DNA of 8,785 bases from a virus. Taxonomy: Duplodnaviria > Heunggongvirae > Uroviricota > Caudoviricetes. The stretch is from positions 1-8,785 of IMG/VR virus record IMGVR_UViG_2778261571_000014. One strand, written 5' to 3'. Below are positions 1 through 7,618 of the stretch, piece after piece; position 1 is the first letter of the stretch, and the number at the start of each line of letters is the position of its first letter. The translations under genes were made by a program, and so were the position numbers. The notes beneath the pieces are model-generated. The model did not search any database, was not told the origin of the DNA, and was given only the letters and a program-made list of their open reading frames with translations.

Positions 1-1410
1 GGATCACTGGCAGAGGCCGCAAATCAGAAAGGCGATTTCGCACAAAATGCAGCAAAAAATGCCGGAGTTAACCTTGCCGCTCAGGGGGTTCTTTCCGCAG
101 CAGCAAAGGGAATAGGGCGTGGAATAACGGCTATAAAAGGTGATATTGCGCCAGAAGTGGCGAAGAAAATTGCCACATCAGAATCGATGGGCGTGACACC
201 AATGACATCTGATGTTATCCCGCCGAAAAATGCTTTCACTCGCGGCCTAACTCAGGATGCCGAGGGGGCTTTGCTCGGGACAGGCTCAAAGCGAGCGGAG
301 CAATATGCAACGCGTAGTAAGCTGGTAAGTAATTATTTTGACCGTTTTGGTGAGTACAACCCTGATGATGTGGTGAAATCTCTTACCACCACGTTAAGGG
401 GGCGGAAGGATGCCGCTGGCGCTGTTATCAATGACGTCACCAATAAAATGGGTAATGCCGCAGTTGATACCACAAATACCATGAATGCTCTGAATACAGC
501 GATCGCAAGACAGGAACGGCTTGGGACGTCTGCCAATCAAAGCCTGCTTACATCCTTGCGTAACCTACGTGAAGAATTAGCAAACCCTGCAACTGATTTG
601 GATGTTACGTTTGATCTCTTGCGTCAGCACAGAACAGCATTTAGATCTAATGTTCAGGGAGATGCTATGGTCTTCCCCAACCAGGCAAAAGCAGCTACCA
701 ATATGGTAGAGAATGCAATGTCAAAAGACCTTCGTAACGCAGTTGCTAAAAACCTCGGTGCATCAGACGCAGCAAAATACCTTAAAGCAAATTCCGATTA
801 TGCAAACGTTTATAATAAGGTGCTTAATAAAAACATTGCCAACAAGCTCAACAAGGCAAGCAGTGAAGCCAGTCCTGAACTTATAAATACCGTTGTATTA
901 AGCAGAAAACCATCTGACGTGAAACGAATCTGGAGCGCACTGGATGATAAGGGGAAAGATGCTATGCGTGCAGCTTACGTCAGCAAAATAGCGGAAAAGG
1001 CCGGGGACTCTCCAGCCAAGTTCATCACTGAAGTTAATAAGCTGAAATCTCAGTCAGGCGGTGAAATTTACAACACTATTTTTTCTGGAAAGCACATGAA
1101 AGAGCTTGATGCTCTTCATGAAGTTCTACAGCAAACAGCAAGGTCAGACACCGCAAATGTAGTAACTCAGACGGGGCAATCGCAAGCCAACAGGATAAGG
1201 ACGATTGGCGCAACTACGACTCTTGGCGTATCAATGGGGCTTGAGGCTGGTTTCGGTGCAATGATGCGCTTGTATGAGTCTAAAGCAGCAAGAAACATGC
1301 TTCTCCGCCTTGCAAACGTCAAGCCTGGAACTCCGGCATATGAGCGAGCGTTAAATCAGGCTGCTAACGCCGTTCGCCCTCTCCTAACTAACGAAGCTAC
1401 CAGGCAGTAG
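1..1410 (+). CDS. Phage DNA-ejection (injection) protein, P22 gp16-like by position; 5'-truncated by the window edge
   Basis: Frame 1 is open from base 1 with no stop before the track ATG at 157, so the 417-aa ORF is the 3' part of a longer gene; stop TAG 1408-1410. The translation is Ala/Lys/Asn/Thr-rich with no TM segment. Product is assigned from synteny (directly upstream of the sie/immI block and tailspike), not from a recognised motif. Confidence 0.65.
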
Positions 1411-1429: not shown

Positions 1430-1759
1430 CTATTTAATTCTCTTTTCAATGGCTGCAATTATTGCTTTTCCTGATGTTTCAGGAGATTTTGTAGCCATAT
1501 AAGACGAAAAAATCATGTCGGTCATTCTTTCATAACTTACTATTTCCCACTTAGCCAATGCATGGGACAGTTTGTAGTTGTCATCAGTTAGTGCCCTTAT
1601 GGAATTTTTTAAGTGTTTATTCTCTTCTGTTAATCGCGCAATTTTTGTATCAATTTCATGTGAGCGATCTAATTCCTTAACCTGTTTCTTGAGGGCAGCT
1701 AACCCTGCATATAGTACGCAACAGGATATCCCAAGAGCGAGTACGACTATTTCTAACAC
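1430..1759 (-). CDS. Small membrane protein (N-terminal TM helix plus coiled-coil-like region); candidate superinfection-exclusion or accessory protein
   Basis: Track ORF 1430..1975(-). Preferred start is the in-frame GTG at 1759-1757, preceded by AAGGAGG (1770-1764) with 4-nt spacing. The product begins VLEIVVLALGISCCVLYAGLAAL (hydrophobic, about 22 aa) followed by a charged heptad-like segment (KKQVKELDRSHEIDTKIARLTEENKHLKNSIRAL). The upstream extension 1760-1975 is W/H/C/F-rich and overlaps the better-looking + gene 1790..2155. Sits where sieA lies in P22. Confidence 0.5.
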   Translation of the reverse strand: MLEIVVLALGISCCVLYAGLAALKKQVKELDRSHEIDTKIARLTEENKHLKNSIRALTDDNYKLSHALAKWEIVSYERMTDMIFSSYMATKSPETSGKAIIAAIEKRIK

Positions 1760-1789
1760 ACCAACCTCCTTAGTTTTTCGCAGGATACC

Positions 1790-2155
1790 ATGAAAAAAGT
1801 TAACATTGGAAACGTACCAAAAATGCTCGTTCCGCTCTTTGAGAGCGGTACAATTGTGTTTTGTAGAGACTTTCCAGAATGGCAACGCCTGCATCAAAAA
1901 CTTGGCGTTGACGTGCATGACTCGGACGCCAACGGAGCGTCTCATACAATGAGTAGCGAGAATGGTGTTTTGCATGTGATAGGCGTGTTCAATGGCAAAC
2001 TATCTACTATTGCCCATGAGTGCGCTCACATGGCATTCGATATCTGCTCAAGGGTAGGTGTTGATGTTGAACCAGGAAGAGCCAACGAGACTTACTGCTA
2101 CTTAATGAGCAGGCTTGTTGAGTTCTGCGAGCGACATATCAAAAAGCCGGAGTGA
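1790..2155 (+). CDS. Hypothetical 121-aa protein with an HExxH motif (possible small zincin / ImmA-IrrE(M78)-like metallopeptidase)
   Basis: ATG 1790 preceded by AGGA (1781-1784) with 5-nt spacing; stop TGA 2153-2155. The translation contains STIAHECAHMAF (HECAH encoded at 2015-2029), which resembles the xTxAHExxH signature of M78/ImmA-type peptidases. The function is inferred from the motif only. Confidence 0.55.
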   Translation: MKKVNIGNVPKMLVPLFESGTIVFCRDFPEWQRLHQKLGVDVHDSDANGASHTMSSENGVLHVIGVFNGKLSTIAHECAHMAFDICSRVGVDVEPGRANETYCYLMSRLVEFCERHIKKPE

Positions 2156-2163
2156 CCCGGCTT
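2144..2163. terminator. Hairpin between convergent genes (AAGCCGG-agtgac-CCGGCTT); probable intrinsic terminator, better on the minus strand
   Basis: 7-bp stem 2144-2150 / 2157-2163 with a 6-nt loop that contains the TGA stop of 1790..2155. On the minus strand the stem is followed directly by TTTGATAT, giving a 5-T run with the stem Ts. On the + strand it is followed by GATTATTACTTTTT. Confidence 0.35.
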
Positions 2164-2168
2164 GATTA

Positions 2169-2348
2169 TTACTTTTTGCTGTCTGGAGTTCGCTTATCTA
2201 ATACCCAGCCATGACCTGGCTTTGTTGTTGGTGGAAGCCTTTCGTTGTCCTTGACGGTGGCAAAATTGTCTTTCTTACCGCCGCGCGGGCCAACTTCTTG
2301 GTATATTCCGCCGTTTTTTCCTGTGTTTTCACCTGGTTTTTTCGCCAT
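2169..2348 (-). CDS. Small 59-aa Gly/Lys-rich hypothetical protein
   Basis: Track ORF 2169..2363(-). Preferred start is the second ATG (2348-2346), preceded by GAGG with 6-nt spacing, giving MAKKPGENTGKNGGIYQEVGPRGGKKDNFATVKDNERLPPTTKPGHGWVLDKRTPDSKK. Low complexity, so coding status is uncertain. I have an unverified recollection that a 59-codon ORF occupies this position in P22. Confidence 0.4.
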   Translation of the reverse strand: MAKKPGENTGKNGGIYQEVGPRGGKKDNFATVKDNERLPPTTKPGHGWVLDKRTPDSKK

Positions 2349-2437
2349 GATATACCTCAACATGCACTCGTTATTGGGCGATTAAATATTGATCTCATTT
2401 TATGAGTAGTCAATATGGTCCAAAAAAGGCAAAAATT

Positions 2438-2465
2438 AACCCACCTTCAGGTGGGTTTTTTGTTT
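2438..2465. terminator. Bidirectional rho-independent terminator (AACCCACC-ttca-GGTGGGTT followed by TTTTGTTT)
   Basis: 8-bp stem 2438-2445 / 2450-2457, loop 2446-2449, T-run to 2465 on the + strand. On the minus strand the same stem is followed by AATTTTTGCCTTTTTT. The TGA stop of the minus-strand RHH gene (2449-2447) lies in the loop. Confidence 0.6.
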
Positions 2466-2767
2466 AGCAGTTCTCTCAACTTTTCGTTCTGCTCTCTGAA
2501 CTTTTCCTGTATTTCTTTTTGCATGGCGATAACCTGGGCTTGAAGTTGAACTAGCGCATCAACATTTAGCGGAACCGAGACGCTGTTGATTTTATCTGCT
2601 ATTTCCCCGAGTGTATTTTCTGCATTCAAGGCATCTTCCAGTATCTGAACAATCTCTGAGTTCATTGATCTGCCGTTACGTTTGGCTCGTTCAGCTATAG
2701 CATCCCGCATTCCTGCAGGAAGCCTGATATTGAACCTATCCATTTCATGACTAGGGAACTTGCTCAT
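2447..2767 (-). CDS. Ribbon-helix-helix (Arc/Mnt-family) repressor, 106 aa, with a C-terminal coiled-coil-like extension
   Basis: ATG 2767-2765 preceded by GAGG with 4-nt spacing; stop TGA 2449-2447. The N-terminus DRFNIRLPAGMRDAIAERAKRNGRSMNSEIVQILEDAL matches the Arc/Mnt beta-strand and helix signature (FN.R.P ... NGRS.NSE) recalled from P22 Arc and Mnt. It is divergent from the arc-like gene, which is the Mnt position in P22 immI. Confidence 0.75.
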   Translation of the reverse strand: MSKFPSHEMDRFNIRLPAGMRDAIAERAKRNGRSMNSEIVQILEDALNAENTLGEIADKINSVSVPLNVDALVQLQAQVIAMQKEIQEKFREQNEKLRELLNKKPT

Positions 2768-2878: not shown

Positions 2879-3052
2879 ATGAAAGATGTGCTTTACACAG
2901 GTCGTAAAAGTCAAAGTTTTCAGCTTCGTTTGCCAGCGCGAATGAAGGAGGAGATTAGACGTGTTGCTGAAATGGATGGAATTTCTATCAACTCTGCGAT
3001 TGTGCAGCGACTGGCTAAAAGCCTGAGAGAGGAAAGAGCTAATGCCCAGTAA
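2879..3052 (+). CDS. arc: Arc-like ribbon-helix-helix repressor, 57 aa (absent from the supplied ORF track, presumably below its length cutoff)
   Basis: ATG 2879 preceded by AGGAGG (2866-2871) with 7-nt spacing; stop TAA 3050-3052. Translation MKDVLYTGRKSQSFQLRLPARMKEEIRRVAEMDGISINSAIVQRLAKSLREERANAQ aligns by eye with P22 Arc (…QFNLRWPREV…AEENGRSVNSEIYQRV…). It lies between the divergent RHH gene and the antirepressor gene, as arc does in P22. Confidence 0.75.
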   Translation: MKDVLYTGRKSQSFQLRLPARMKEEIRRVAEMDGISINSAIVQRLAKSLREERANAQ

Positions 3053-3125
3053 AAATAGTGAAGCCCAGCAGTGCGCGAACACAAACTGGGCCTCTATGTC
3101 AGTAACCGTATGCAAGGAAACTAAC

Positions 3126-3752
3126 ATGAATATTGTAGCAAAATCAGATTACAACTTCCACGGAGTTGAGTTGGTGCCCACCCGTGATATGCATGGTGTT
3201 TGGTTTACATCATCTAATATTGCATCTGCACTTAAATACGCAAATAGTCGTGCAGTAACAATGATTTATAACAAGTATAGCGATGAGTTTAGCGCCGGAA
3301 TGACTCAGGTACTCGAAGTGAGTACCTCAGGAAATTATCGCAAAAAAGTGCGAGTTTTCTCACTACGCGGTGCCCACCTAATCGCGATGTTTGCTCGCAC
3401 TCCGGTAGCCAAAGAGTTTCGCCGCTGGGTGCTGGATATTTTGGATCGGCAGGCAGAATGCTCACCGATTGCAAAACAGTTTACTGACGAAGAACTGGTT
3501 AATCTCTGCTACTTACAATTGTGGATGGAGAAGAGTCAACAAATGTGCAAACACATCTACCCAGGAATGAAGCAAATTGGTTCTGAGCTTTCAGGAAGAA
3601 TTTACGATATTGCATATGAGACTCGCTATATGTCAGAAGAAACCAAGAAATCACTTCTTCGTGAAATGAAGAATCTTGATACCAACAATTTTGTCGTAAA
3701 GAACGCTCAGCCAATGCTGACAAAACTGCGCGGCGAGGAATGGATTCATTGA
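3126..3752 (+). CDS. Phage antirepressor, Bro-N/AntA-type N-terminal domain
   Basis: Track ORF 3042..3752. Preferred start is ATG 3126, preceded by AAGGAAA with 5-nt spacing. The recognisable domain (NFHGVELVPTRDMHGVWFTSSNIASALKY … VRVFSLRGAHLIAMFARTPVAKEFRRWVLDIL) begins about 10 aa after it and matches the Bro-N/AntA pattern (F.F…WF…A..L… ending …A..F..WV). The alternative ATG 3042 overlaps the arc stop by 11 nt and cannot be excluded. Stop TGA 3750-3752. Confidence 0.7.
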   Translation: MNIVAKSDYNFHGVELVPTRDMHGVWFTSSNIASALKYANSRAVTMIYNKYSDEFSAGMTQVLEVSTSGNYRKKVRVFSLRGAHLIAMFARTPVAKEFRRWVLDILDRQAECSPIAKQFTDEELVNLCYLQLWMEKSQQMCKHIYPGMKQIGSELSGRIYDIAYETRYMSEETKKSLLREMKNLDTNNFVVKNAQPMLTKLRGEEWIH

Positions 3753-3781: not shown

Positions 3782-3802
3782 CCGCCAGTGTGCTGCTGGC
3801 GG
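3782..3802 (-). terminator. Terminator-like GC-rich hairpin on the minus strand (CCGCCAG-7 nt-CTGGCGG followed by TTTTCTTTTT)
   Basis: 7-bp stem 3782-3788 / 3796-3802. On the minus strand it is followed by a T-tract (complement of the A-run 3772-3780); on the + strand no T-tract follows. A second short hairpin GCGCC-ggac-GGCGC lies at 3758-3771. No minus-strand gene is evident upstream of it. Confidence 0.3.
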
Positions 3803-3840
3803 CCTATGTCACACCCTTACTACCACATAAGGAATGCCTA

Positions 3841-4566
3841 ATGACTTTGAAGAATGTAGCAAACATCGGATCCGTTGTCACGGATAAAACCATTGACAGC
3901 CAAAGTCTTCTGATGATGGTTAATGAAGCTCGCAAGTTATGTGGAGAGCCATCAGTACGTAACAACAAATTCATCGAGAAAATTGAGGATGAATTGGAGG
4001 GCGAGACCTACACAAAAAGTGTAGGTCGGAAAAACGGGGCTGACATTGATGTTATCTCCATGACTATCAAGCAGGCGCTTCGTGTTGCTGCTCGCGAATC
4101 TAAAGCAGTTCGCCGAACACTTGTAGACAAACTTGAAAGTATGCAGGAAGCACACATTAAAAGCGGTAAATCAGCGAGTGGACTTGTTGAGTATCGTCAA
4201 GCGCGAACATTGAAAATGACGGTTGAAGCTGTTACCAATCTGTTCGATCTGATGCCAAATCTTGCGCCTGAGGCAAAGCAGACAGCGGCAGCAAGTATAA
4301 TCAACCCGCTCGTTGGTTTTAATGCAATACCTCTTCCGGCAATAGAAGAGCATTACTACTCAGCAGGGGAGGTTGCAGAGCAGCTTGGAGTAACGGCCAA
4401 CAAGATTGGTCGTATTGCTAACGCAAACAACCTCAAAACTGAGCAGTACGGGAAGTTCTTCCTAGATAAATCGGCGCATTCCAGCAAACAGGTAGAGGCG
4501 TTCCGTTACAATTCTGAAGGCGTTAAAGCACTACAACACCTGCTACATGGCTCAAATGTGGCGTAA
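3841..4566 (+). CDS. Second antirepressor-like / phage regulatory protein (Rha- or KilAC-like features), 241 aa
   Basis: Track ORF 3790..4566. Preferred start is ATG 3841, preceded by AAGGAA with 6-nt spacing; the 3790 start would place the GC hairpin in coding sequence and lacks an RBS. Stop TAA 4564-4566. The C-terminal segment SAGEVAEQLGVTANKIGRIANANNL looks like a helix-turn-helix. Family assignment is from memory of antirepressor C-terminal domains and is tentative. Confidence 0.55.
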   Translation: MTLKNVANIGSVVTDKTIDSQSLLMMVNEARKLCGEPSVRNNKFIEKIEDELEGETYTKSVGRKNGADIDVISMTIKQALRVAARESKAVRRTLVDKLESMQEAHIKSGKSASGLVEYRQARTLKMTVEAVTNLFDLMPNLAPEAKQTAAASIINPLVGFNAIPLPAIEEHYYSAGEVAEQLGVTANKIGRIANANNLKTEQYGKFFLDKSAHSSKQVEAFRYNSEGVKALQHLLHGSNVA

Positions 4567-4584
4567 CATTTTATAATGAAAACT

Positions 4585-4615
4585 AAACCCGCTTAATCGC
4601 GGGTTTTTTCTTTCC
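4585..4615. terminator. Bidirectional rho-independent terminator (AAACCCGC-ttaatc-GCGGGTTT followed by TTTCTTTCC)
   Basis: 8-bp stem 4585-4592 / 4599-4606 with a 6-nt loop, then a T-rich tract on the + strand and AGTTTTCATT on the minus strand. It lies 19 bp after the + gene stop (4566), and the minus-strand mnt-like stop (4595-4593) sits in the loop. Confidence 0.6.
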
Positions 4616-4850
4616 TTAGAATTTCAGCCGCAACTTCTTTTACTCGTTCCGAGATTAATGAGGCCAGCCTCTCTTCTTCATCACGATACCCGCTTACAGG
4701 TGATGGTTTGGAGAGTGATTCTTCCATCGTAGCCACAATTTCGGAATTGATAGACCTGTTATTCATTTTTGCACGCTGCTTAATCTTAGCGTGCAACTCG
4801 TGCGTAAGCCTCAAGTGGAACTGCGCCTCATCGTATTTGCTGTACATCAT
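4593..4850 (-). CDS. mnt: Mnt-type ribbon-helix-helix repressor homolog, 85 aa
   Basis: Track ORF 4593..4928(-). Preferred start is ATG 4850-4848, preceded by GAGG with 5-nt spacing. The product MMYSKYDEAQFHLRLTHELHAKIKQRAKMNNRSINSEIVATMEESLSKPSPVSGYRDEEERLASL… aligns along its length with P22 Mnt as recalled (…HFNFRMPMEVREKLKFRAEANGRSMNSELLQIVQDALSKPSPVTGYRNDAERLA…). The upstream extension (MHTEMVRLLICTVGFTMPFHPFGEAL) has no RBS. Confidence 0.8.
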   Translation of the reverse strand: MMYSKYDEAQFHLRLTHELHAKIKQRAKMNNRSINSEIVATMEESLSKPSPVSGYRDEEERLASLISERVKEVAAEILRKEKTRD

Positions 4851-4982
4851 CAATGCCTCACCAAATGGGTGGAATGGCATCGTAAAACCTACTGTACAAA
4901 TCAACAATCGTACCATTTCGGTATGCAATAAACACCAACCGTAGCCATGCTGCGGCGATTCCTTGTATCTGGAGCAAATTAA

Positions 4983-6896
4983 ATGACAGATTCAATAAAT
5001 GCCAATGTTGTAGTAAGCATGCCTTCTCAACTCTTCACTATGGCTCGTTCTTTTAAAGCCGTAGCCAATGGCAAAATTTATATCGGTAAAATTGACACGG
5101 ACCCGGTAAATCCTGAAAACCAGATTCAGGTTTATGTGGAGAACGAAGATGGTTCTCACGTTCCTGTTTCGCAACCAATCATCATTAACGCTGCTGGATA
5201 TCCGGTATATAACGGACAGATTGCTAAGTTCGTAACTGTGCAAGGCCATTCTATGGCTGTTTATGATGCGTATGGTGCACAGCAGTTCAATTTTCCAAAC
5301 GTGCTGAAGTATGATCCTGATCAGTTTCGTCAGGAACTGGCAGGTAATAGTGGTGCGTCACAGATTGGTTCCTCATCAGGAAATACTGTTCAACAAGAAA
5401 TAGATCGTCTAAATAAATTTGGTTATGCTTATGGTGTTAGATTAAGCGCGTATATGCATGAAAGCGACCCCTTAACAAGCGCCCTGACTGCATCACGGGA
5501 AAAAAGACTACCACTTGTCATTGATTGTGATGCGACATATAAAACTTTAGTGGTTTACAGTAATGACAGAATAATTGGCTGCGGTGATCATACATTAACA
5601 AAATCCGGTAATGATAAGCCATCCATTCCACCGGCACAACAACCAGAACGCCCTTCTGGTTCGATGACTAATTTTAGTGAAATTGATGCAGGTATCGTTA
5701 TTGTTCACCCTGACAATGGGTCGGCAACCAATATTATTATTTCAGGGTTTAACCTCGCGACTAACTCACATTGCGACTATGCGATACATTGCTCTTTCAT
5801 GTCTTTTACAAAAATAGAAGATATGAAGTTCAACGGGTACAAGCGTGGGATTAAATGGTACACCGCCTATGGAAATCAGCTATCCAGAATATTTTCACTT
5901 TACTACTATTCTGTCACTGATGTTTTTTCAGACTATATTTGCTACGATTTTTCTGACGGTAACTACCCATCAGGCACATCAAATACCCTAACAAACGTAA
6001 CATGCACCAACTATAAGAAATGCTATTACGTAGCAAATCTAAACTACTCTACATTTACCAATTGTGGTGGTGAAGGAGTAGAGTCACCAACACCAGTATC
6101 CACAGGAAACATCCCACAGACCTTCGAGTTTGTCAATTGCCCTAATATTGTCCTGAATACACCATATACTGAGAATTTAAGGGGTGGATTTATAAGGGCA
6201 GTTAGTGATGCATCCGGGGTGTATCAAGGTGCCGCAACTATGGTCATCAATGGGCCAGAGGCGGTCGTGGGTATCACAGGCACCACTACCAATGTTGGCG
6301 CTAAGCTTCTGGACATTCAGGGAGGAGTTAACTGTGTGATAAACGGTGGATACATGACAGGTGCTGCAAGTGGGTATTTCCTTGAGTTTGGTGGGGCATC
6401 GGATGACGCAACCCTTACGATAATAGGGATGGAAATGCGCAACGTATTAGAACAAATACGAAACCATCCTGGATATAACGGAATTAACTCTATAAAAGGG
6501 TTAAGGCCTATGCAGTTACTTCGTAAAGGGATTGGAGATGCGACCGGGACCGGGATAGTAAACTGGAAAACAGCTGCCGAAGACCAGTATTTTATGGGCG
6601 GGGGAAATTTCACTAAAACAATACTTGGTGGATTTTATAAGATAGAAATTACGTTACCCATAGGATCTTCCGCATCAGGCGGAGAAGTTCAACTCTTGCT
6701 GTCAGATACGGATACAGACAATGGAGTTATAATTTCACAATGCTATGTTCCTCCAGTGTCAAGCGGTAAGTTTACTGCCTCCATAAGCTACGAGGGTAGA
6801 TTGCCAGGTGGAAAGTTTCTTTATGTAAAAACTAATAATGCCAATTGGTCATCTGGATACGATCCAGACTCAATATTTAATGTTGTTCTGAAATAA
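4983..6896 (+). CDS. Tailspike protein (P22 gp9-like N-terminal head-binding domain; divergent C-terminal receptor-binding domain), 637 aa
   Basis: ATG 4983 preceded by GGAG with 8-nt spacing; stop TAA 6894-6896. The first ~113 aa ([12 protein letters not shown]…[21 protein letters not shown]…ENEDGSHV…[12 protein letters not shown]…VLKYDPDQ) closely match the P22 tailspike N-terminus as recalled. The rest is Gly/Thr/Asn/Ser-rich, consistent with a beta-rich receptor-binding domain, and is not recognisably P22-like. Confidence 0.9.
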
Positions 6897-7284
6897 CAAT
6901 ATTTATAATGATGCACGCAAAGCTTTGTACTGGATTGCAAGGCTTTGCGCTATACGATAGTGGCTAAGGTGGGTCACTCTACCTTCTCATCAATCCAGTC
7001 CGCCCACCATTGCATCATTTCTCTGCGCTTAACGTAGCGGATGCCTCACTATCACACGGTGATGGTTCATTACTGGTTTGCAGAATGGATAGAGAACTGA
7101 GGATAAAAGATATCCCAAAACCCCAAAATCTCATCTTTAGGATTTGCAGAAAGGTAGGCGTGAACAGATACCTACGCATGAAGACGGGACTAGCTCAGAT
7201 GTGATATTTGTGGTGATCACATACATCATCAACGATGCTCGTTATGGTGAGTTTGATGACTACCCGCTGAAGTGAAAATTGTGT

Positions 7285-7308
7285 TGTGTACCAAATTGCG
7301 TACCAAAC
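7285..7308. repeat. Tandem 12-bp direct repeat (TGTGTACCAAAT / TGCGTACCAAAC) in the prophage-host junction region
   Basis: Two adjacent 12-mers identical at 10 of 12 positions; the core GTACCAAA occurs at 7288-7295 and 7300-7307. Function unknown; could be a protein-binding site or an att-proximal arm-type site. Confidence 0.3.
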
Positions 7309-7618
7309 TAAAATCACAAATCATGAAACCCTTGTTCATGGCGGTTCTCAGGGGTGTTTCGCGTAATCGTGAAACAAAAAGGTAGATTGTTGCTTACCGT
7401 CATTCATCATTAGGTTAAATCCGTTATTTCTGCTGTCTGCCAGAGTATCAAATATCACCGTGCTAATCAGCTTTAGCGCCACAATTTGGCAGCGAGTGGC
7501 AACAGATCATGTCAGATAAAAATGAGAGGGTAGTCACATTTTCTTGCACTTTATTCCAGCCAGTTCATAAGTATTTCCGTAAAAAGAACAGCTATTTGAA
7601 ACTCCTGAGGGTTTGCTG

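What the first reader, a model, noticed from the sequence alone, without database searches (positions are those of the whole stretch)
1430..2348. Three-gene AT-rich accessory block at the sieA position, a candidate uncharacterised superinfection-exclusion or defence module
Between the ejection-protein gene and the immI-like locus lie three small genes, none of which I recognise as a P22 core gene: a divergent pair made of a single-TM/coiled-coil membrane protein (1430-1759, -) and an HExxH protein (1790-2155, +), and a convergent 59-aa Gly/Lys-rich protein (2169-2348, -). In P22-like phages this slot holds superinfection-exclusion and other accessory genes. A membrane protein sitting next to the DNA-ejection genes fits an injection-blocking role, and the adjacent metallopeptidase-like protein suggests a two-component system. 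The block is visibly AT-richer than the neighbouring ejection gene.
Basis: partly seen in the sequence, partly recalled or inferred. Interest (0 to 1): 0.65.

Follow-up and report, generated by a model that had tools for sequence, protein, structure and literature searches.

The report
Three unlinked P22 ant-moron genes
The three small genes are real, but they are three independently inherited accessory genes of P22-like phages rather than one defence module: only the first, an uncharacterised membrane protein in the slot where P22 carries its exclusion gene sieA, is a reasonable but untested exclusion candidate.

Summary
The window is the right end of a P22-like prophage in E. coli: gp16, three small genes, immI (mnt/arc/ant), tailspike, host dacD. 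All three ORFs exist as described and have good ribosome-binding sites.

The "three-gene / two-component module" reading fails.
- The HExxH gene is hkcC and the 59-aa gene is orf59a. Both are in P22 itself (1 aa difference each) and in HK620, and are listed in the literature as of unknown function.
- hkcC lies on the late-operon strand. It belongs to a large phage family (546 clusters) whose only invariant residues are HExxH plus a Glu 20 residues on, which is a mini-zincin signature.
- Only the 109-aa gene (1430-1759) sits in the sieA slot. It replaces sieA precisely at a shared SD/start codon.
- In 84 loci with near-identical hkcC, that slot holds 12 unrelated proteins, 11 with an N-terminal signal or TM segment. 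SieA is the only one characterised.
- Of 42 loci with the 109-aa family, only 9 carry hkcC/orf59a.

The 109-aa protein has an N-terminal TM segment, a long helix and an invariant C-terminal 40 residues that are probably cytoplasmic. It is neither SieA nor HkcB. A prophage-expressed exclusion or conversion role is plausible by position only. Only this gene is AT-rich. Interest is modest.

The parts
157..1410 (+). C-terminal 417 codons of the gene 16 ejection protein (context; the slot gene is convergent with it, 19 nt away)
   Evidence: Strongly similar to the P22 gp16 C-terminus. In all 41 F6 loci where this gp16 C-terminal type was detected it abuts the 109-aa family gene; in L087 the abutting gene is an HkcB-like gene.
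1430..1759 (-). Slot cassette gene, 109 aa (phrog_8100). N-terminal TM (residues about 4-23), long helix / coiled coil, and a nearly invariant C-terminal 40 residues (KWEIVSYERMTDMIFSSYMATKSPETSGKAIIAAIEKRIK). Sits exactly where P22 has sieA and HK620 has hkcB.
   Evidence: 37% GC. Narrow family: 14 clusters at 60% identity or more to the query. Present in 2 of 5426 complete E. coli genomes.
1760..1792 (.). Conserved bidirectional linker of about 33 nt. It carries the SD AAGGAGG for the slot gene (revcomp of 1765-1771), AGGA (1782-1785) before the hkcC ATG, and a TGgTATCCT extended -10-like element on the minus strand (revcomp of 1782-1790). It is the mosaic junction on both sides.
   Evidence: Alignment A1. 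The linker is retained in 40 of 42 F6 loci whatever lies beyond it. The promoter role is inferred, not shown.
1790..1820 (-). Equivalent of the putative PsieA promoter annotated in P22-pbi; lies inside the 5' end of hkcC
   Evidence: P22-pbi annotation at 13861-13891, transferred by alignment. The 85 nt upstream of the start differ from P22 at 3 positions. In P22, sieA with 85 bp of upstream sequence gave exclusion (PMC10883804).
1790..2155 (+). hkcC, 121 aa (phrog_1365): small zincin-like protein with H76-E77-x-x-H80 and E100; on the late-operon strand
   Evidence: 99% identical to P22/HK620 hkcC. AF2 pLDDT 89, pTM 0.83. The only invariant columns in 120 diverse homologues are H76, E77, H80 and E100.
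2144..2163 (.). Bidirectional hairpin terminator between the ends of hkcC and orf59a (t-orf59a / t-mnt of the HK620 and P22 annotations)
2169..2348 (-). orf59a (HK620 'hkcD'), 59 aa, Gly/Lys-rich, YjzC-like (phrog_3202)
   Evidence: 1 aa different from P22 orf59a. Pfam YjzC 19.4 bits, below the 25-bit cut-off. tblastn hits to Firmicute phage proteins, one annotated as YjzC family.
2385..2413 (-). Sigma-70-like promoter match (TTGACT-17-AATATT) upstream of orf59a
   Evidence: consensus match only, and the total number of matches in the region is no higher than in shuffles
2438..2457 (.). Bidirectional hairpin terminator at the end of mnt
2447..2767 (-). mnt-like Arc-family repressor (start of the immI region; context)
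   Evidence: Pfam Arc E=1.6e-20

Best explanation
The block is not one system. It is three separately inherited genes of the P22-like 'ant moron'.

(1) 1430-1759 is one of at least 12 unrelated, interchangeable cassettes in the slot that holds sieA in P22.
- All cassettes start a few nucleotides after the same Shine-Dalgarno sequence, on the strand transcribed in the prophage. They are convergent with gene 16.
- The product is a single-pass inner-membrane protein. By the positive-inside rule it is N-out / C-in.
- Its helical stalk carries a conserved 40-residue C-terminal domain at the cytoplasmic face.
- My best guess for its role, from position and analogy only, is a lysogen-expressed envelope factor. 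It would either interfere with DNA delivery by superinfecting P22-like phages (a SieA analogue) or otherwise protect or convert the lysogen.

(2) hkcC is a conserved late-strand gene that encodes a minimal gluzincin-type metallopeptidase-like protein.
- It is reached by P-late transcription running through the moron to the tailspike gene.
- Its family is spread over temperate and virulent phages, so it most likely serves the lytic cycle (host take-over or anti-defence proteolysis) and does not partner the cassette.

(3) orf59a is a YjzC-like small soluble protein on the mnt strand, with unknown function.

Shown: gene structure, cassette exchange, lack of linkage, the zincin signature.
Inferred: expression regime, topology, every biochemical function.
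For: Identity of the genes:
- hkcC and orf59a are 97% nt identical to P22, with 1 aa difference each. HK620 annotates hkcC and the orf59a ORF as a possible hkcD.
- PMC2629481 lists hkcC and 59a as P22 ant-moron genes of unknown function. It also states that P-late transcription crosses the moron to the tailspike gene.

Cassette slot:
- A1 shows P22 sieA, HK620 hkcB and the window/SE1 gene diverging exactly at a shared SD plus GTG.
- 84 loci with near-identical hkcC hold 12 unrelated slot proteins, 11 with an N-terminal signal or TM segment. All but SieA are PHROGs of unknown function or match no PHROG.
- One gp16 C-terminal type is found with five different cassettes, including SieA and this one.

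No linkage:
- Only 9 of 42 loci with the 109-aa family carry hkcC + orf59a. 11 keep a 5-6-codon hkcC stump.
- In L087 the family sits in tandem with an HkcB homologue and next to a KilA-N gene instead of hkcC.

Expression:
- The 85 nt upstream of the start differ from the P22 region at 3 nt. In P22, sieA with 85 bp upstream sufficed for exclusion (PMC10883804).
- No sigma-70-like promoter was found on the + strand upstream of hkcC.

Protein features:
- 109-aa protein: TM plus long helix, conserved C-terminal 40 aa.
- HkcC: AF2 pLDDT 89 with beta-sheet / HExxH helix / Glu helix. It has 546 representative clusters. Invariant H76, E77, H80, E100 in 120 sequences.
- Sub-threshold profile matches fall only on the zincin strand + HExxH helix of myroilysin and astacins. 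A few relatives score as SprT-like or DUF5700.
- BFVD has 26 phage structures at E<1e-3, TM up to 0.83, a few of them named SprT-like.
- Paralogues lie in late operons next to terminase or portal genes.
Against: - No functional data exist for any of the three genes.
- The slot argument is guilt by position: only one of the 12 cassette families (SieA) has a demonstrated exclusion role.
- The 109-aa protein shares no sequence, TM number or motif with SieA.
- Its predicted cytoplasmic orientation puts the conserved domain away from the periplasmic conduit.
- In loci where the cassette abuts the tailspike side, the annotated PsieA sequence is absent. The promoter assignment is therefore uncertain.
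- An N4-like homologue heads what looks like an early gene cluster, so 'late function' is not universal for the family.
Confidence: 0.55

Rival explanations
1. The three genes form one accessory module, with the membrane protein and the HExxH protein acting as a two-component superinfection-exclusion or defence system.
For: They are adjacent. The first two are divergent, with only 30 nt between their start codons. The same three-gene arrangement recurs at 95% nt identity in SE1, ST160 and several other Salmonella phages, and in 2 E. coli genomes.
Against: - hkcC + orf59a are found with 12 unrelated slot genes, including real sieA.
- The 109-aa family lacks hkcC/orf59a in 33 of 42 loci.
- In P22, sieA alone with 85 bp of upstream sequence is sufficient for exclusion (PMC10883804).
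- hkcC lies on the late strand, and its paralogues sit in late operons of other phages.
- PADLOC gives no significant hit.
Confidence: 0.05
2. The 109-aa protein is a lysogenic-conversion or host-physiology factor unrelated to phage exclusion. It could be a membrane-anchored coiled-coil protein that modulates division, envelope stress or a host membrane complex, or an abortive-infection or toxin-like membrane protein.
For: - Its architecture (short N-terminus, TM, coiled coil) resembles FtsB/DivIC-type proteins. Weak sub-threshold Pfam hits go to DivIC (E=0.0037) and ZapB.
- The predicted cytoplasmic orientation is not obviously suited to blocking a periplasmic conduit.
- The 12 slot cassettes are so diverse (lipoprotein, secreted, multi-TM, one soluble) that a single common function is not required.
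Against: - The Pfam hits are far below the cut-offs (17.5 against 28.9 bits) and are typical of any TM + coiled-coil protein.
- There is no similarity to FtsB or YajC.
- The invariable position abutting the ejection-protein gene, and the one characterised occupant (SieA), point towards phage-phage conflict.
Confidence: 0.3
3. HkcC is an ImmA/IrrE-like regulatory protease of the adjacent immI circuit. It would cleave Mnt, Arc or the C2 repressor, so it would belong functionally with immI rather than with lytic growth.
For: - It lies inside the immI-containing moron.
- A few BFVD neighbours are named IrrE.
Against: - HK620 keeps hkcC although only mnt and ant remnants are left there.
- Homologues occur in virulent N4-like phages, and between the lysis genes and the terminase gene in ST64T.
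Confidence: 0.07
4. One or more of the ORFs is not a functional gene, i.e. a chance ORF or decaying remnant.
For: - orf59a is small, and HK620 annotates it only as 'may encode'.
- The 109-aa gene is unannotated in several phage records.
- It shows a fairly high dN/dS of 0.64 against SE1.
Against: - All three have canonical SDs and dedicated PHROG families with full-length matches.
- hkcC has dN/dS 0.04-0.08.
- The substitutions in the 109-aa family are confined to the TM and stalk, while the C-terminal 40 aa are nearly invariant down to 60% overall identity.
- orf59a has homologues in Firmicute phages.
Confidence: 0.03

Closest known systems
P22 SieA (superinfection exclusion protein, types A/B/C; Leavitt et al. 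2024, PMC10883804)
   Same: The 109-aa gene sits in the same genomic slot, on the same strand and convergent with gene 16. It has the same SD, start-codon position and upstream sequence. Both are small inner-membrane proteins. SieA alternates with the window gene on the same gp16 background.
   Different: There is no sequence similarity (E=0.32 over the TM region only). The window protein is 109 aa with 1 TM; SieA is 162-164 aa in P22 (longer in types B and C) with 3 predicted TM in P22 and one more in types B and C. The conserved SieA motif FxRYPxEAxxFNK is absent. The window protein is a coiled-coil stalk with a small C-terminal domain. No exclusion phenotype has been tested.
HK620 HkcB (phrog_5962)
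   Same: Same slot, same length (109 aa), same architecture (N-terminal TM, basic juxtamembrane stretch, coiled coil, conserved C-terminal tail). Function equally unknown.
   Different: BLASTP finds no alignment. hhalign aligns only the TM and juxtamembrane 27 residues at 48% probability. The two families occur in tandem in one locus (L087), so they are not simple alleles.
Other small membrane-anchored phage exclusion proteins (T4 Imm and Sp, HK97 gp15, lactococcal Sie2009); recalled from memory, not tested here
   Same: Small prophage- or phage-encoded membrane proteins that block DNA entry. HK97 gp15 is likewise a moron in the structural-gene region.
   Different: No sequence relationship was detected in any search here. 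The mechanisms and topologies of those proteins differ, and nothing shows that the window protein blocks DNA entry.
hkcC of P22/HK620, and zincin (gluzincin) metallopeptidases such as SprT-like (PF10263), DUF5700 and ImmA/IrrE
   Same: The window gene is hkcC (99% aa identity). It has HExxH in a helix that follows a beta-strand, plus a Glu 20 residues after the second His at the start of the next helix, as in gluzincins. These four residues are the only invariant ones in the family.
   Different: It has no significant Pfam or NCBIfam match itself, and only 3 of 120 relatives touch SprT-like or DUF5700. No solved structure matches convincingly. It is only about 120 aa with no further domain. 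Activity and substrate are unknown.
P22 orf59a / YjzC-like proteins (PF14168)
   Same: The 59-aa gene is orf59a (1 aa difference from P22). The weak YjzC profile match covers residues 4-49. tblastn reaches Clostridium and Brochothrix phage proteins, the Clostridium one annotated as YjzC family.
   Different: The Pfam score (19.4) is below the gathering cut-off (25). The YjzC family itself has no known function.

Membership tests
SieA superinfection-exclusion family (types A-C) | Detectable sequence similarity to SieA, including the conserved motif FxRYPxEAxxFNK | tested here: not met
   BLASTP against P22 SieA gives E=0.32 over the TM region only. The motif is absent from the 109-aa sequence (translation). 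Motif definition from PMC10883804.
SieA superinfection-exclusion family (types A-C) | Three (type A) or four (types B and C) predicted transmembrane segments; 162-164 aa in P22, longer in types B and C | tested here: not met
   One hydrophobic segment (residues 1-24) by hydropathy scan, and a single continuous helix in AF2. Length 109 aa.
SieA superinfection-exclusion family (types A-C) | Position between gene 16 and gene 9 homologues of a P22-like prophage, on the prophage-expressed strand | tested here: met
   same slot, same SD/start and same upstream region.
SieA superinfection-exclusion family (types A-C) | Blocks DNA injection of P22-like phages | not testable with these tools
   Needs plating and DNA-entry assays.
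HkcB family (phrog_5962) | Sequence or profile similarity | tested here: not met
   No BLASTP alignment. hhalign aligns only the TM region, 48% probability. PHROG assignments differ: 8100 against 5962.
phrog_8100 (unknown function) | Full-length profile match | tested here: met
   E=1.4e-69, residues 2-109 on profile positions 2-109 of 109.
Zincin / gluzincin metallopeptidases (for HkcC) | HExxH in an alpha-helix plus a third ligand Glu on the following helix, conserved across the family | tested here: met
   H76, E77, H80 and E100 are the only invariant columns in 120 sequences of 23-74% identity. Model helices are 71-88 and 100-116.
Zincin / gluzincin metallopeptidases (for HkcC) | Zincin fold confirmed against solved structures | tested here: inconclusive
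Zincin / gluzincin metallopeptidases (for HkcC) | Zinc binding and peptidase activity | not testable with these tools
   Needs biochemistry.
Pfam SprT-like (PF10263) | Score above the gathering threshold | tested here: not met
   No hit for the window protein. Only 2 of 120 relatives match, at E>=1e-4.
YjzC-like (PF14168) (for orf59a) | Score above the gathering threshold (25 bits) | tested here: inconclusive
   19.4 bits, E=0.0013, covering 46 of 59 residues. Supported by tblastn hits to a phage protein annotated as YjzC family.
Two-gene (membrane protein + metallopeptidase) defence system | Conserved co-occurrence of the two genes | tested here: not met
   hkcC occurs with the 109-aa family in 7 of 84 hkcC loci. 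The 109-aa family occurs with hkcC in 9 of 42 loci.
Known anti-phage defence systems (PADLOC-DB 2.0) | Profile match to a catalogued defence protein | tested here: not met
   Only a coiled-coil-type match to LmuB, E=0.0014 and 15.6 bits, for the 109-aa protein. Nothing for hkcC or orf59a.

The most novel reading that the evidence does not exclude
The sieA slot is a dedicated hot-swap site: a ~33-nt bidirectional linker carrying the SD and possibly an extended -10. P22-like prophages would exchange a repertoire of at least 12 unrelated envelope-targeted exclusion or defence proteins through it.

On this reading the 109-aa protein is a new kind of exclusion factor that acts from the cytoplasmic face of the inner membrane on the gp16/gp20 DNA-delivery conduit or a host cofactor. 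Separately, HkcC would found an unrecognised phage-wide family of about 120-aa mini-gluzincins that cleave a host (defence) protein.
Probability: 0.2. Interest if true: 0.6.

Novelty: new member of a known kind. Interest (0 to 1): 0.35.

Why it matters
If the 109-aa protein and its 10 uncharacterised slot-mates prove to be exclusion or defence factors, the SieA paradigm would extend from one protein family to a whole exchangeable repertoire at one locus. That would provide a natural panel of proteins aimed at the podovirus DNA-delivery machinery.

HkcC flags a large, unannotated family of very small zincin-like proteins in temperate and virulent phages. The family has no Pfam entry and its substrate is unknown.

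As it stands, though, the region is the long-known, highly variable 'ant moron'. Two of the three genes are named P22 genes, and no function is demonstrated.

Tried and rejected
- Pfam, NCBIfam, PHROGs and PADLOC scans of all three proteins gave only 'unknown function' PHROGs and sub-threshold coiled-coil hits (DivIC, ZapB, bZIP, LmuB).
- Homology of the 109-aa protein to SieA or HkcB is rejected.
- An Rz-like i-spanin reading of the 109-aa protein is rejected. There is no embedded lipoprotein ORF on its strand, and it lies outside the lysis cassette on the prophage-expressed strand.
- Positive selection on the slot gene is rejected. dN/dS is 0.64 against SE1, but the changes cluster in the TM and stalk while the C-terminal domain is invariant. 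This is relaxed constraint, not an arms-race signal.
- Fold search of HkcC against afdb50 was unavailable. Foldseek on PDB found nothing. Profile searches of PDB sequences gave only E>=0.07.
- Literature searches for hkcB, hkcC, orf59a and 'ant moron' found no functional study beyond PMC2629481 and PMC10883804.
- The 181-aa extended ORF (1430-1975) is rejected as an antisense-frame artefact.
Full report
**What the window is.** ORF listing and family scans show the right end of a P22-like prophage.
- 157-1410 (+): C-terminal part of the gene 16 ejection protein.
- 1430-2348: the three small genes of the finding.
- 2447-2767 (-): an Mnt-like Arc-family repressor.
- 2879-3052 (+): arc.
- 3042-3752 (+): an Ant-like antirepressor.
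- 3790-4566 (+) and 4593-4928 (-): a second antirepressor and a second Arc-family gene.
- 4983-6896 (+): the tailspike.
- From 7613: host dacD.

The DNA from about 6906 onward matches the E. coli chromosome upstream of dacD. No tRNA gene is present.

**Check of the observation.**
- The first starts with GTG at 1759, 5 nt after AAGGAGG.
- The second starts with ATG at 1790, after AGGA.
- The third starts with ATG at 2348, after GAGG.
- The 109-aa product has a hydrophobic N-terminus followed by KKQVK. AF2 predicts one helix over residues 2-90 and a short second helix (pLDDT 88.7).
- The 121-aa product contains HECAH, and the 59-aa product is Gly/Lys-rich.
- The AT-richness claim holds only for the first gene: 37.0% GC, against 45.9% (hkcC), 47.2% (orf59a) and 46.9% (gp16).

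**Two of the three genes are ordinary P22 genes.**
- Megablast of 1400-2450 against phage genomes finds the whole block at about 95% in SE1, ST160 and several other Salmonella phages.
- The right two-thirds (from 1756) match at 97% in P22, HK620 and about 50 other records.
- In P22 the 121-aa and 59-aa ORFs are intact, with one amino-acid difference each.
- HK620 annotates the first as hkcC and flags the second as a possible gene, hkcD. P22 calls the second orf59a.
- The epsilon34 genome paper names this region the 'ant moron' and lists hkcC and 59a as P22 genes of unknown function. It describes the region as in rapid flux, with ten types in sixteen genomes.
- The same paper notes that P-late transcription runs through the region into the tailspike gene (PMC2629481).

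**The first gene sits exactly in the sieA slot.**
- An alignment of the window, P22, HK620 and SE1 (A1) shows identical sequence from hkcC down to the SD and GTG. Beyond that point there is complete divergence.
- P22 has sieA there, HK620 has hkcB, and the window and SE1 have this gene.
- The 85 nt upstream of the start differ from P22 at only 3 positions.
- In P22, sieA with 85 bp of upstream sequence, inserted in single copy, gave full exclusion. The putative PsieA promoter lies in that stretch (PMC10883804; annotation).
- The window protein is not SieA. SieA is 162-164 aa with three TM segments and a conserved FxRYPxEAxxFNK motif. BLASTP finds nothing meaningful.
- It is not HkcB either, although both are 109 aa with the same TM + coiled-coil layout.

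**Survey of the slot.**
- I fetched 80 IMG/VR loci encoding HkcC at 98% identity or more. With P22, HK620, SE1 and the window, that makes 84 loci.
- I extracted the minus-strand ORF that starts just after the shared SD in each. 82 loci yielded a protein.
- The 82 proteins fall into 12 families with no BLASTP link at E<1e-5:

| Slot family | Loci |
|---|---|
| 161-aa lipoprotein | 18 |
| SieA | 14 |
| 129-aa secreted protein | 12 |
| 75-aa multi-TM protein | 8 |
| HkcB | 7 |
| the window family | 7 |
| 106-aa protein | 5 |
| 62-aa protein | 4 |
| 68-, 149-, 99- and 140-aa proteins | 2, 2, 2, 1 |

- Eleven of the twelve begin with a signal peptide, lipobox or TM segment.
- Apart from SieA, the families either match PHROGs of unknown function or match no PHROG at all (the 149- and 140-aa families).
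- One gp16 C-terminal type is found with five different cassettes, including SieA and the window family.
- orf59a follows hkcC in 71 of 84 loci.
- In complete E. coli genomes, 148 of 5426 carry the hkcC-orf59a segment but only 2 carry the window's cassette.

**The reciprocal survey.**
- The 109-aa family is narrow: 14 clusters at 60% identity or more to the query.
- Among 42 loci that encode it (40 from IMG/VR, plus L086 and L087), only 9 have hkcC and orf59a next to it.
- It lies at the gene 16 end in every locus. It directly abuts the gene in 41 of them; in L087 an HkcB-like gene intervenes.
- The gp16 C-termini in these loci range from 34 to 100% identity to the window's.
- In the hkcC-less loci, a linker of about 33 nt (GGTATCCTGCnnAAAACTAAGGAGGTTGGyGTG) is retained.
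- In 11 of those loci a 5-6-codon stump of hkcC (MKKVNI...) also remains. In 11 more nothing of hkcC is left beyond its ATG; in the one of these examined (L120) the tailspike gene lies about 240 nt upstream.
- In L087 the family is followed in tandem by an HkcB homologue (49% identity), and a KilA-N gene replaces hkcC.
- In L086 the gene ends an mnt-led operon without hkcC.
- The three genes are therefore not co-inherited, and the two-component idea is not supported.

**What the 109-aa protein looks like.**
- Within the family, the TM segment and the juxtamembrane stalk vary. Residues 70-107 (KWE..SYE.MTDMIFS.YMAT.SPE.S...II..IEKR) are nearly invariant down to 60% overall identity.
- This explains the dN/dS of 0.64 against SE1 as relaxed constraint on the anchor, not diversifying selection.
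- The N-terminal flank carries no Lys or Arg, while K24, K25, K28 and R32 follow the TM. The positive-inside rule therefore predicts N-out / C-in, with the conserved domain in the cytoplasm. This is an inference.
- There is no match to known defence proteins, to ejection proteins, or to YajC or FtsB.

**What HkcC looks like.**
- AF2 gives a confident model (pLDDT 89, pTM 0.83) with four strands, one helix, then helix 71-88 carrying H76-E77-x-x-H80 and helix 100-116 starting at E100.
- An exhaustive profile search finds 546 representative clusters at E<=1e-3, nearly all 110-130 aa.
- In an alignment of 120 of them (23-74% identity to the query), the only invariant columns are H76, E77, H80 and E100.
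- That is the gluzincin arrangement. By established knowledge of thermolysin-type enzymes, the third ligand Glu lies 20 residues after the second His.
- Support from structure comparison is weak.
  - Foldseek on PDB found nothing.
  - The profile matches only the strand + HExxH helix of myroilysin and astacins, at E 0.07-0.4.
  - 3 of 120 relatives touch SprT-like or DUF5700.
- Predicted viral structures contain 26 neighbours at E<1e-3 (TM-score up to 0.83). They come from temperate and virulent phages, and a few in the list are labelled SprT-like or metalloprotease.
- Genomic contexts:
  - Distant members lie co-oriented in late operons next to portal or terminase genes.
  - A 38-40% paralogue sits between the lysis genes and the small terminase gene in ST64T. 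tblastn finds it also in L, epsilon34 and MG40.
  - An N4-like phage has one at the head of a cluster of small genes.
- In the window, hkcC has only 30 nt between its ATG and the variable cassette. No promoter-like site lies upstream on its strand.
- It is therefore most simply a passenger of late transcription. This is an inference, consistent.

**orf59a.** It matches phrog_3202 and, below threshold, Pfam YjzC. tblastn reaches Clostridium and Brochothrix phage proteins, the Clostridium one annotated as YjzC family. It lies downstream of mnt on the same strand, behind a hairpin terminator (2438-2457). It has a promoter-like site of its own (2413-2385), and it ends at a bidirectional terminator shared with hkcC (2144-2163). 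Its function is unknown.

**Verdict.**
- The block is not a module. It is a known, highly mosaic accessory region. Two of its genes are named P22 genes.
- The candidate exclusion role of the 109-aa protein rests only on position and membrane location.
- Two points have some value.
  - The sieA slot is a precise cassette-exchange site with at least 12 unrelated, mostly envelope-targeted occupants.
  - HkcC belongs to a large unannotated mini-zincin family.
- Interest is modest (0.35). I file it as a new member of a known kind.

Noticed in passing
window 1760-1792; L090-L128: A linker of about 33 nt (GGTATCCTGCnnAAAACTAAGGAGGTTGGyGTG on the minus strand) is kept in 40 of 42 loci with the 109-aa family, whatever lies on either side of it. 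It carries SDs for both divergent genes and a TGgTATCCT extended -10-like element. It looks like the recombination joint that lets cassettes swap.
   Followed up: partly
L087 5001-5680: In one metagenomic P22-like prophage the slot holds two genes in tandem: a 110-aa member of the window family and a 107-aa HkcB homologue (49% to HK620 HkcB). A KilA-N gene stands where hkcC would be.
   Followed up: partly
L086 1566-2933: A diverged family member (60% identity) ends an apparent operon of mnt, a 90-aa gene, a 150-aa gene and the 116-aa gene. The 150-aa product is a coiled-coil protein with a C-terminal TM (tail-anchored). No hkcC is present.
   Followed up: no
window 3790-4566 (+) and 4593-4928 (-): Between ant and the tailspike gene lies a second antirepressor-like gene (phrog_1726, E=5.5e-101) with a second, divergently placed Arc-family gene. 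This looks like a duplicated immI-like unit that P22 lacks.
   Followed up: no
window 4983-6896 and 6897-7612: The 637-aa tailspike starts like P22 gene 9 (MTD..N..VS.P) but has no NCBIfam match. E. coli chromosomal sequence begins about 10 nt after its stop (about 6906), so the prophage has no gtr or O-antigen modification genes at this end. It abuts the region upstream of dacD, and no tRNA gene is in the window.
   Followed up: partly
L088 (ST64T) 2501-2890; also phages L, epsilon34, MG40, SE1, ST160: P22-like phages carry a second HkcC-family gene (38-40% identity). In ST64T it lies between the lysis cassette and the small terminase gene. SE1 and ST160, which share the window's block, each have two HkcC-like places.
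   Followed up: partly
window 1430-1975 (-); L001 2010-2720 (-): The frame antisense to the 5' part of hkcC is open. ORF finders therefore report a 181-aa (window) or 236-aa (P22) extended version of the slot gene. The conserved SD + GTG shows that the short form is the real one.
   Followed up: yes
window 1467-1486 (+): A weak terminator-like hairpin with a T-run lies on the late strand just after the gene 16 stop, inside the 3' end of the slot gene.
   Followed up: no
   Followed up: no
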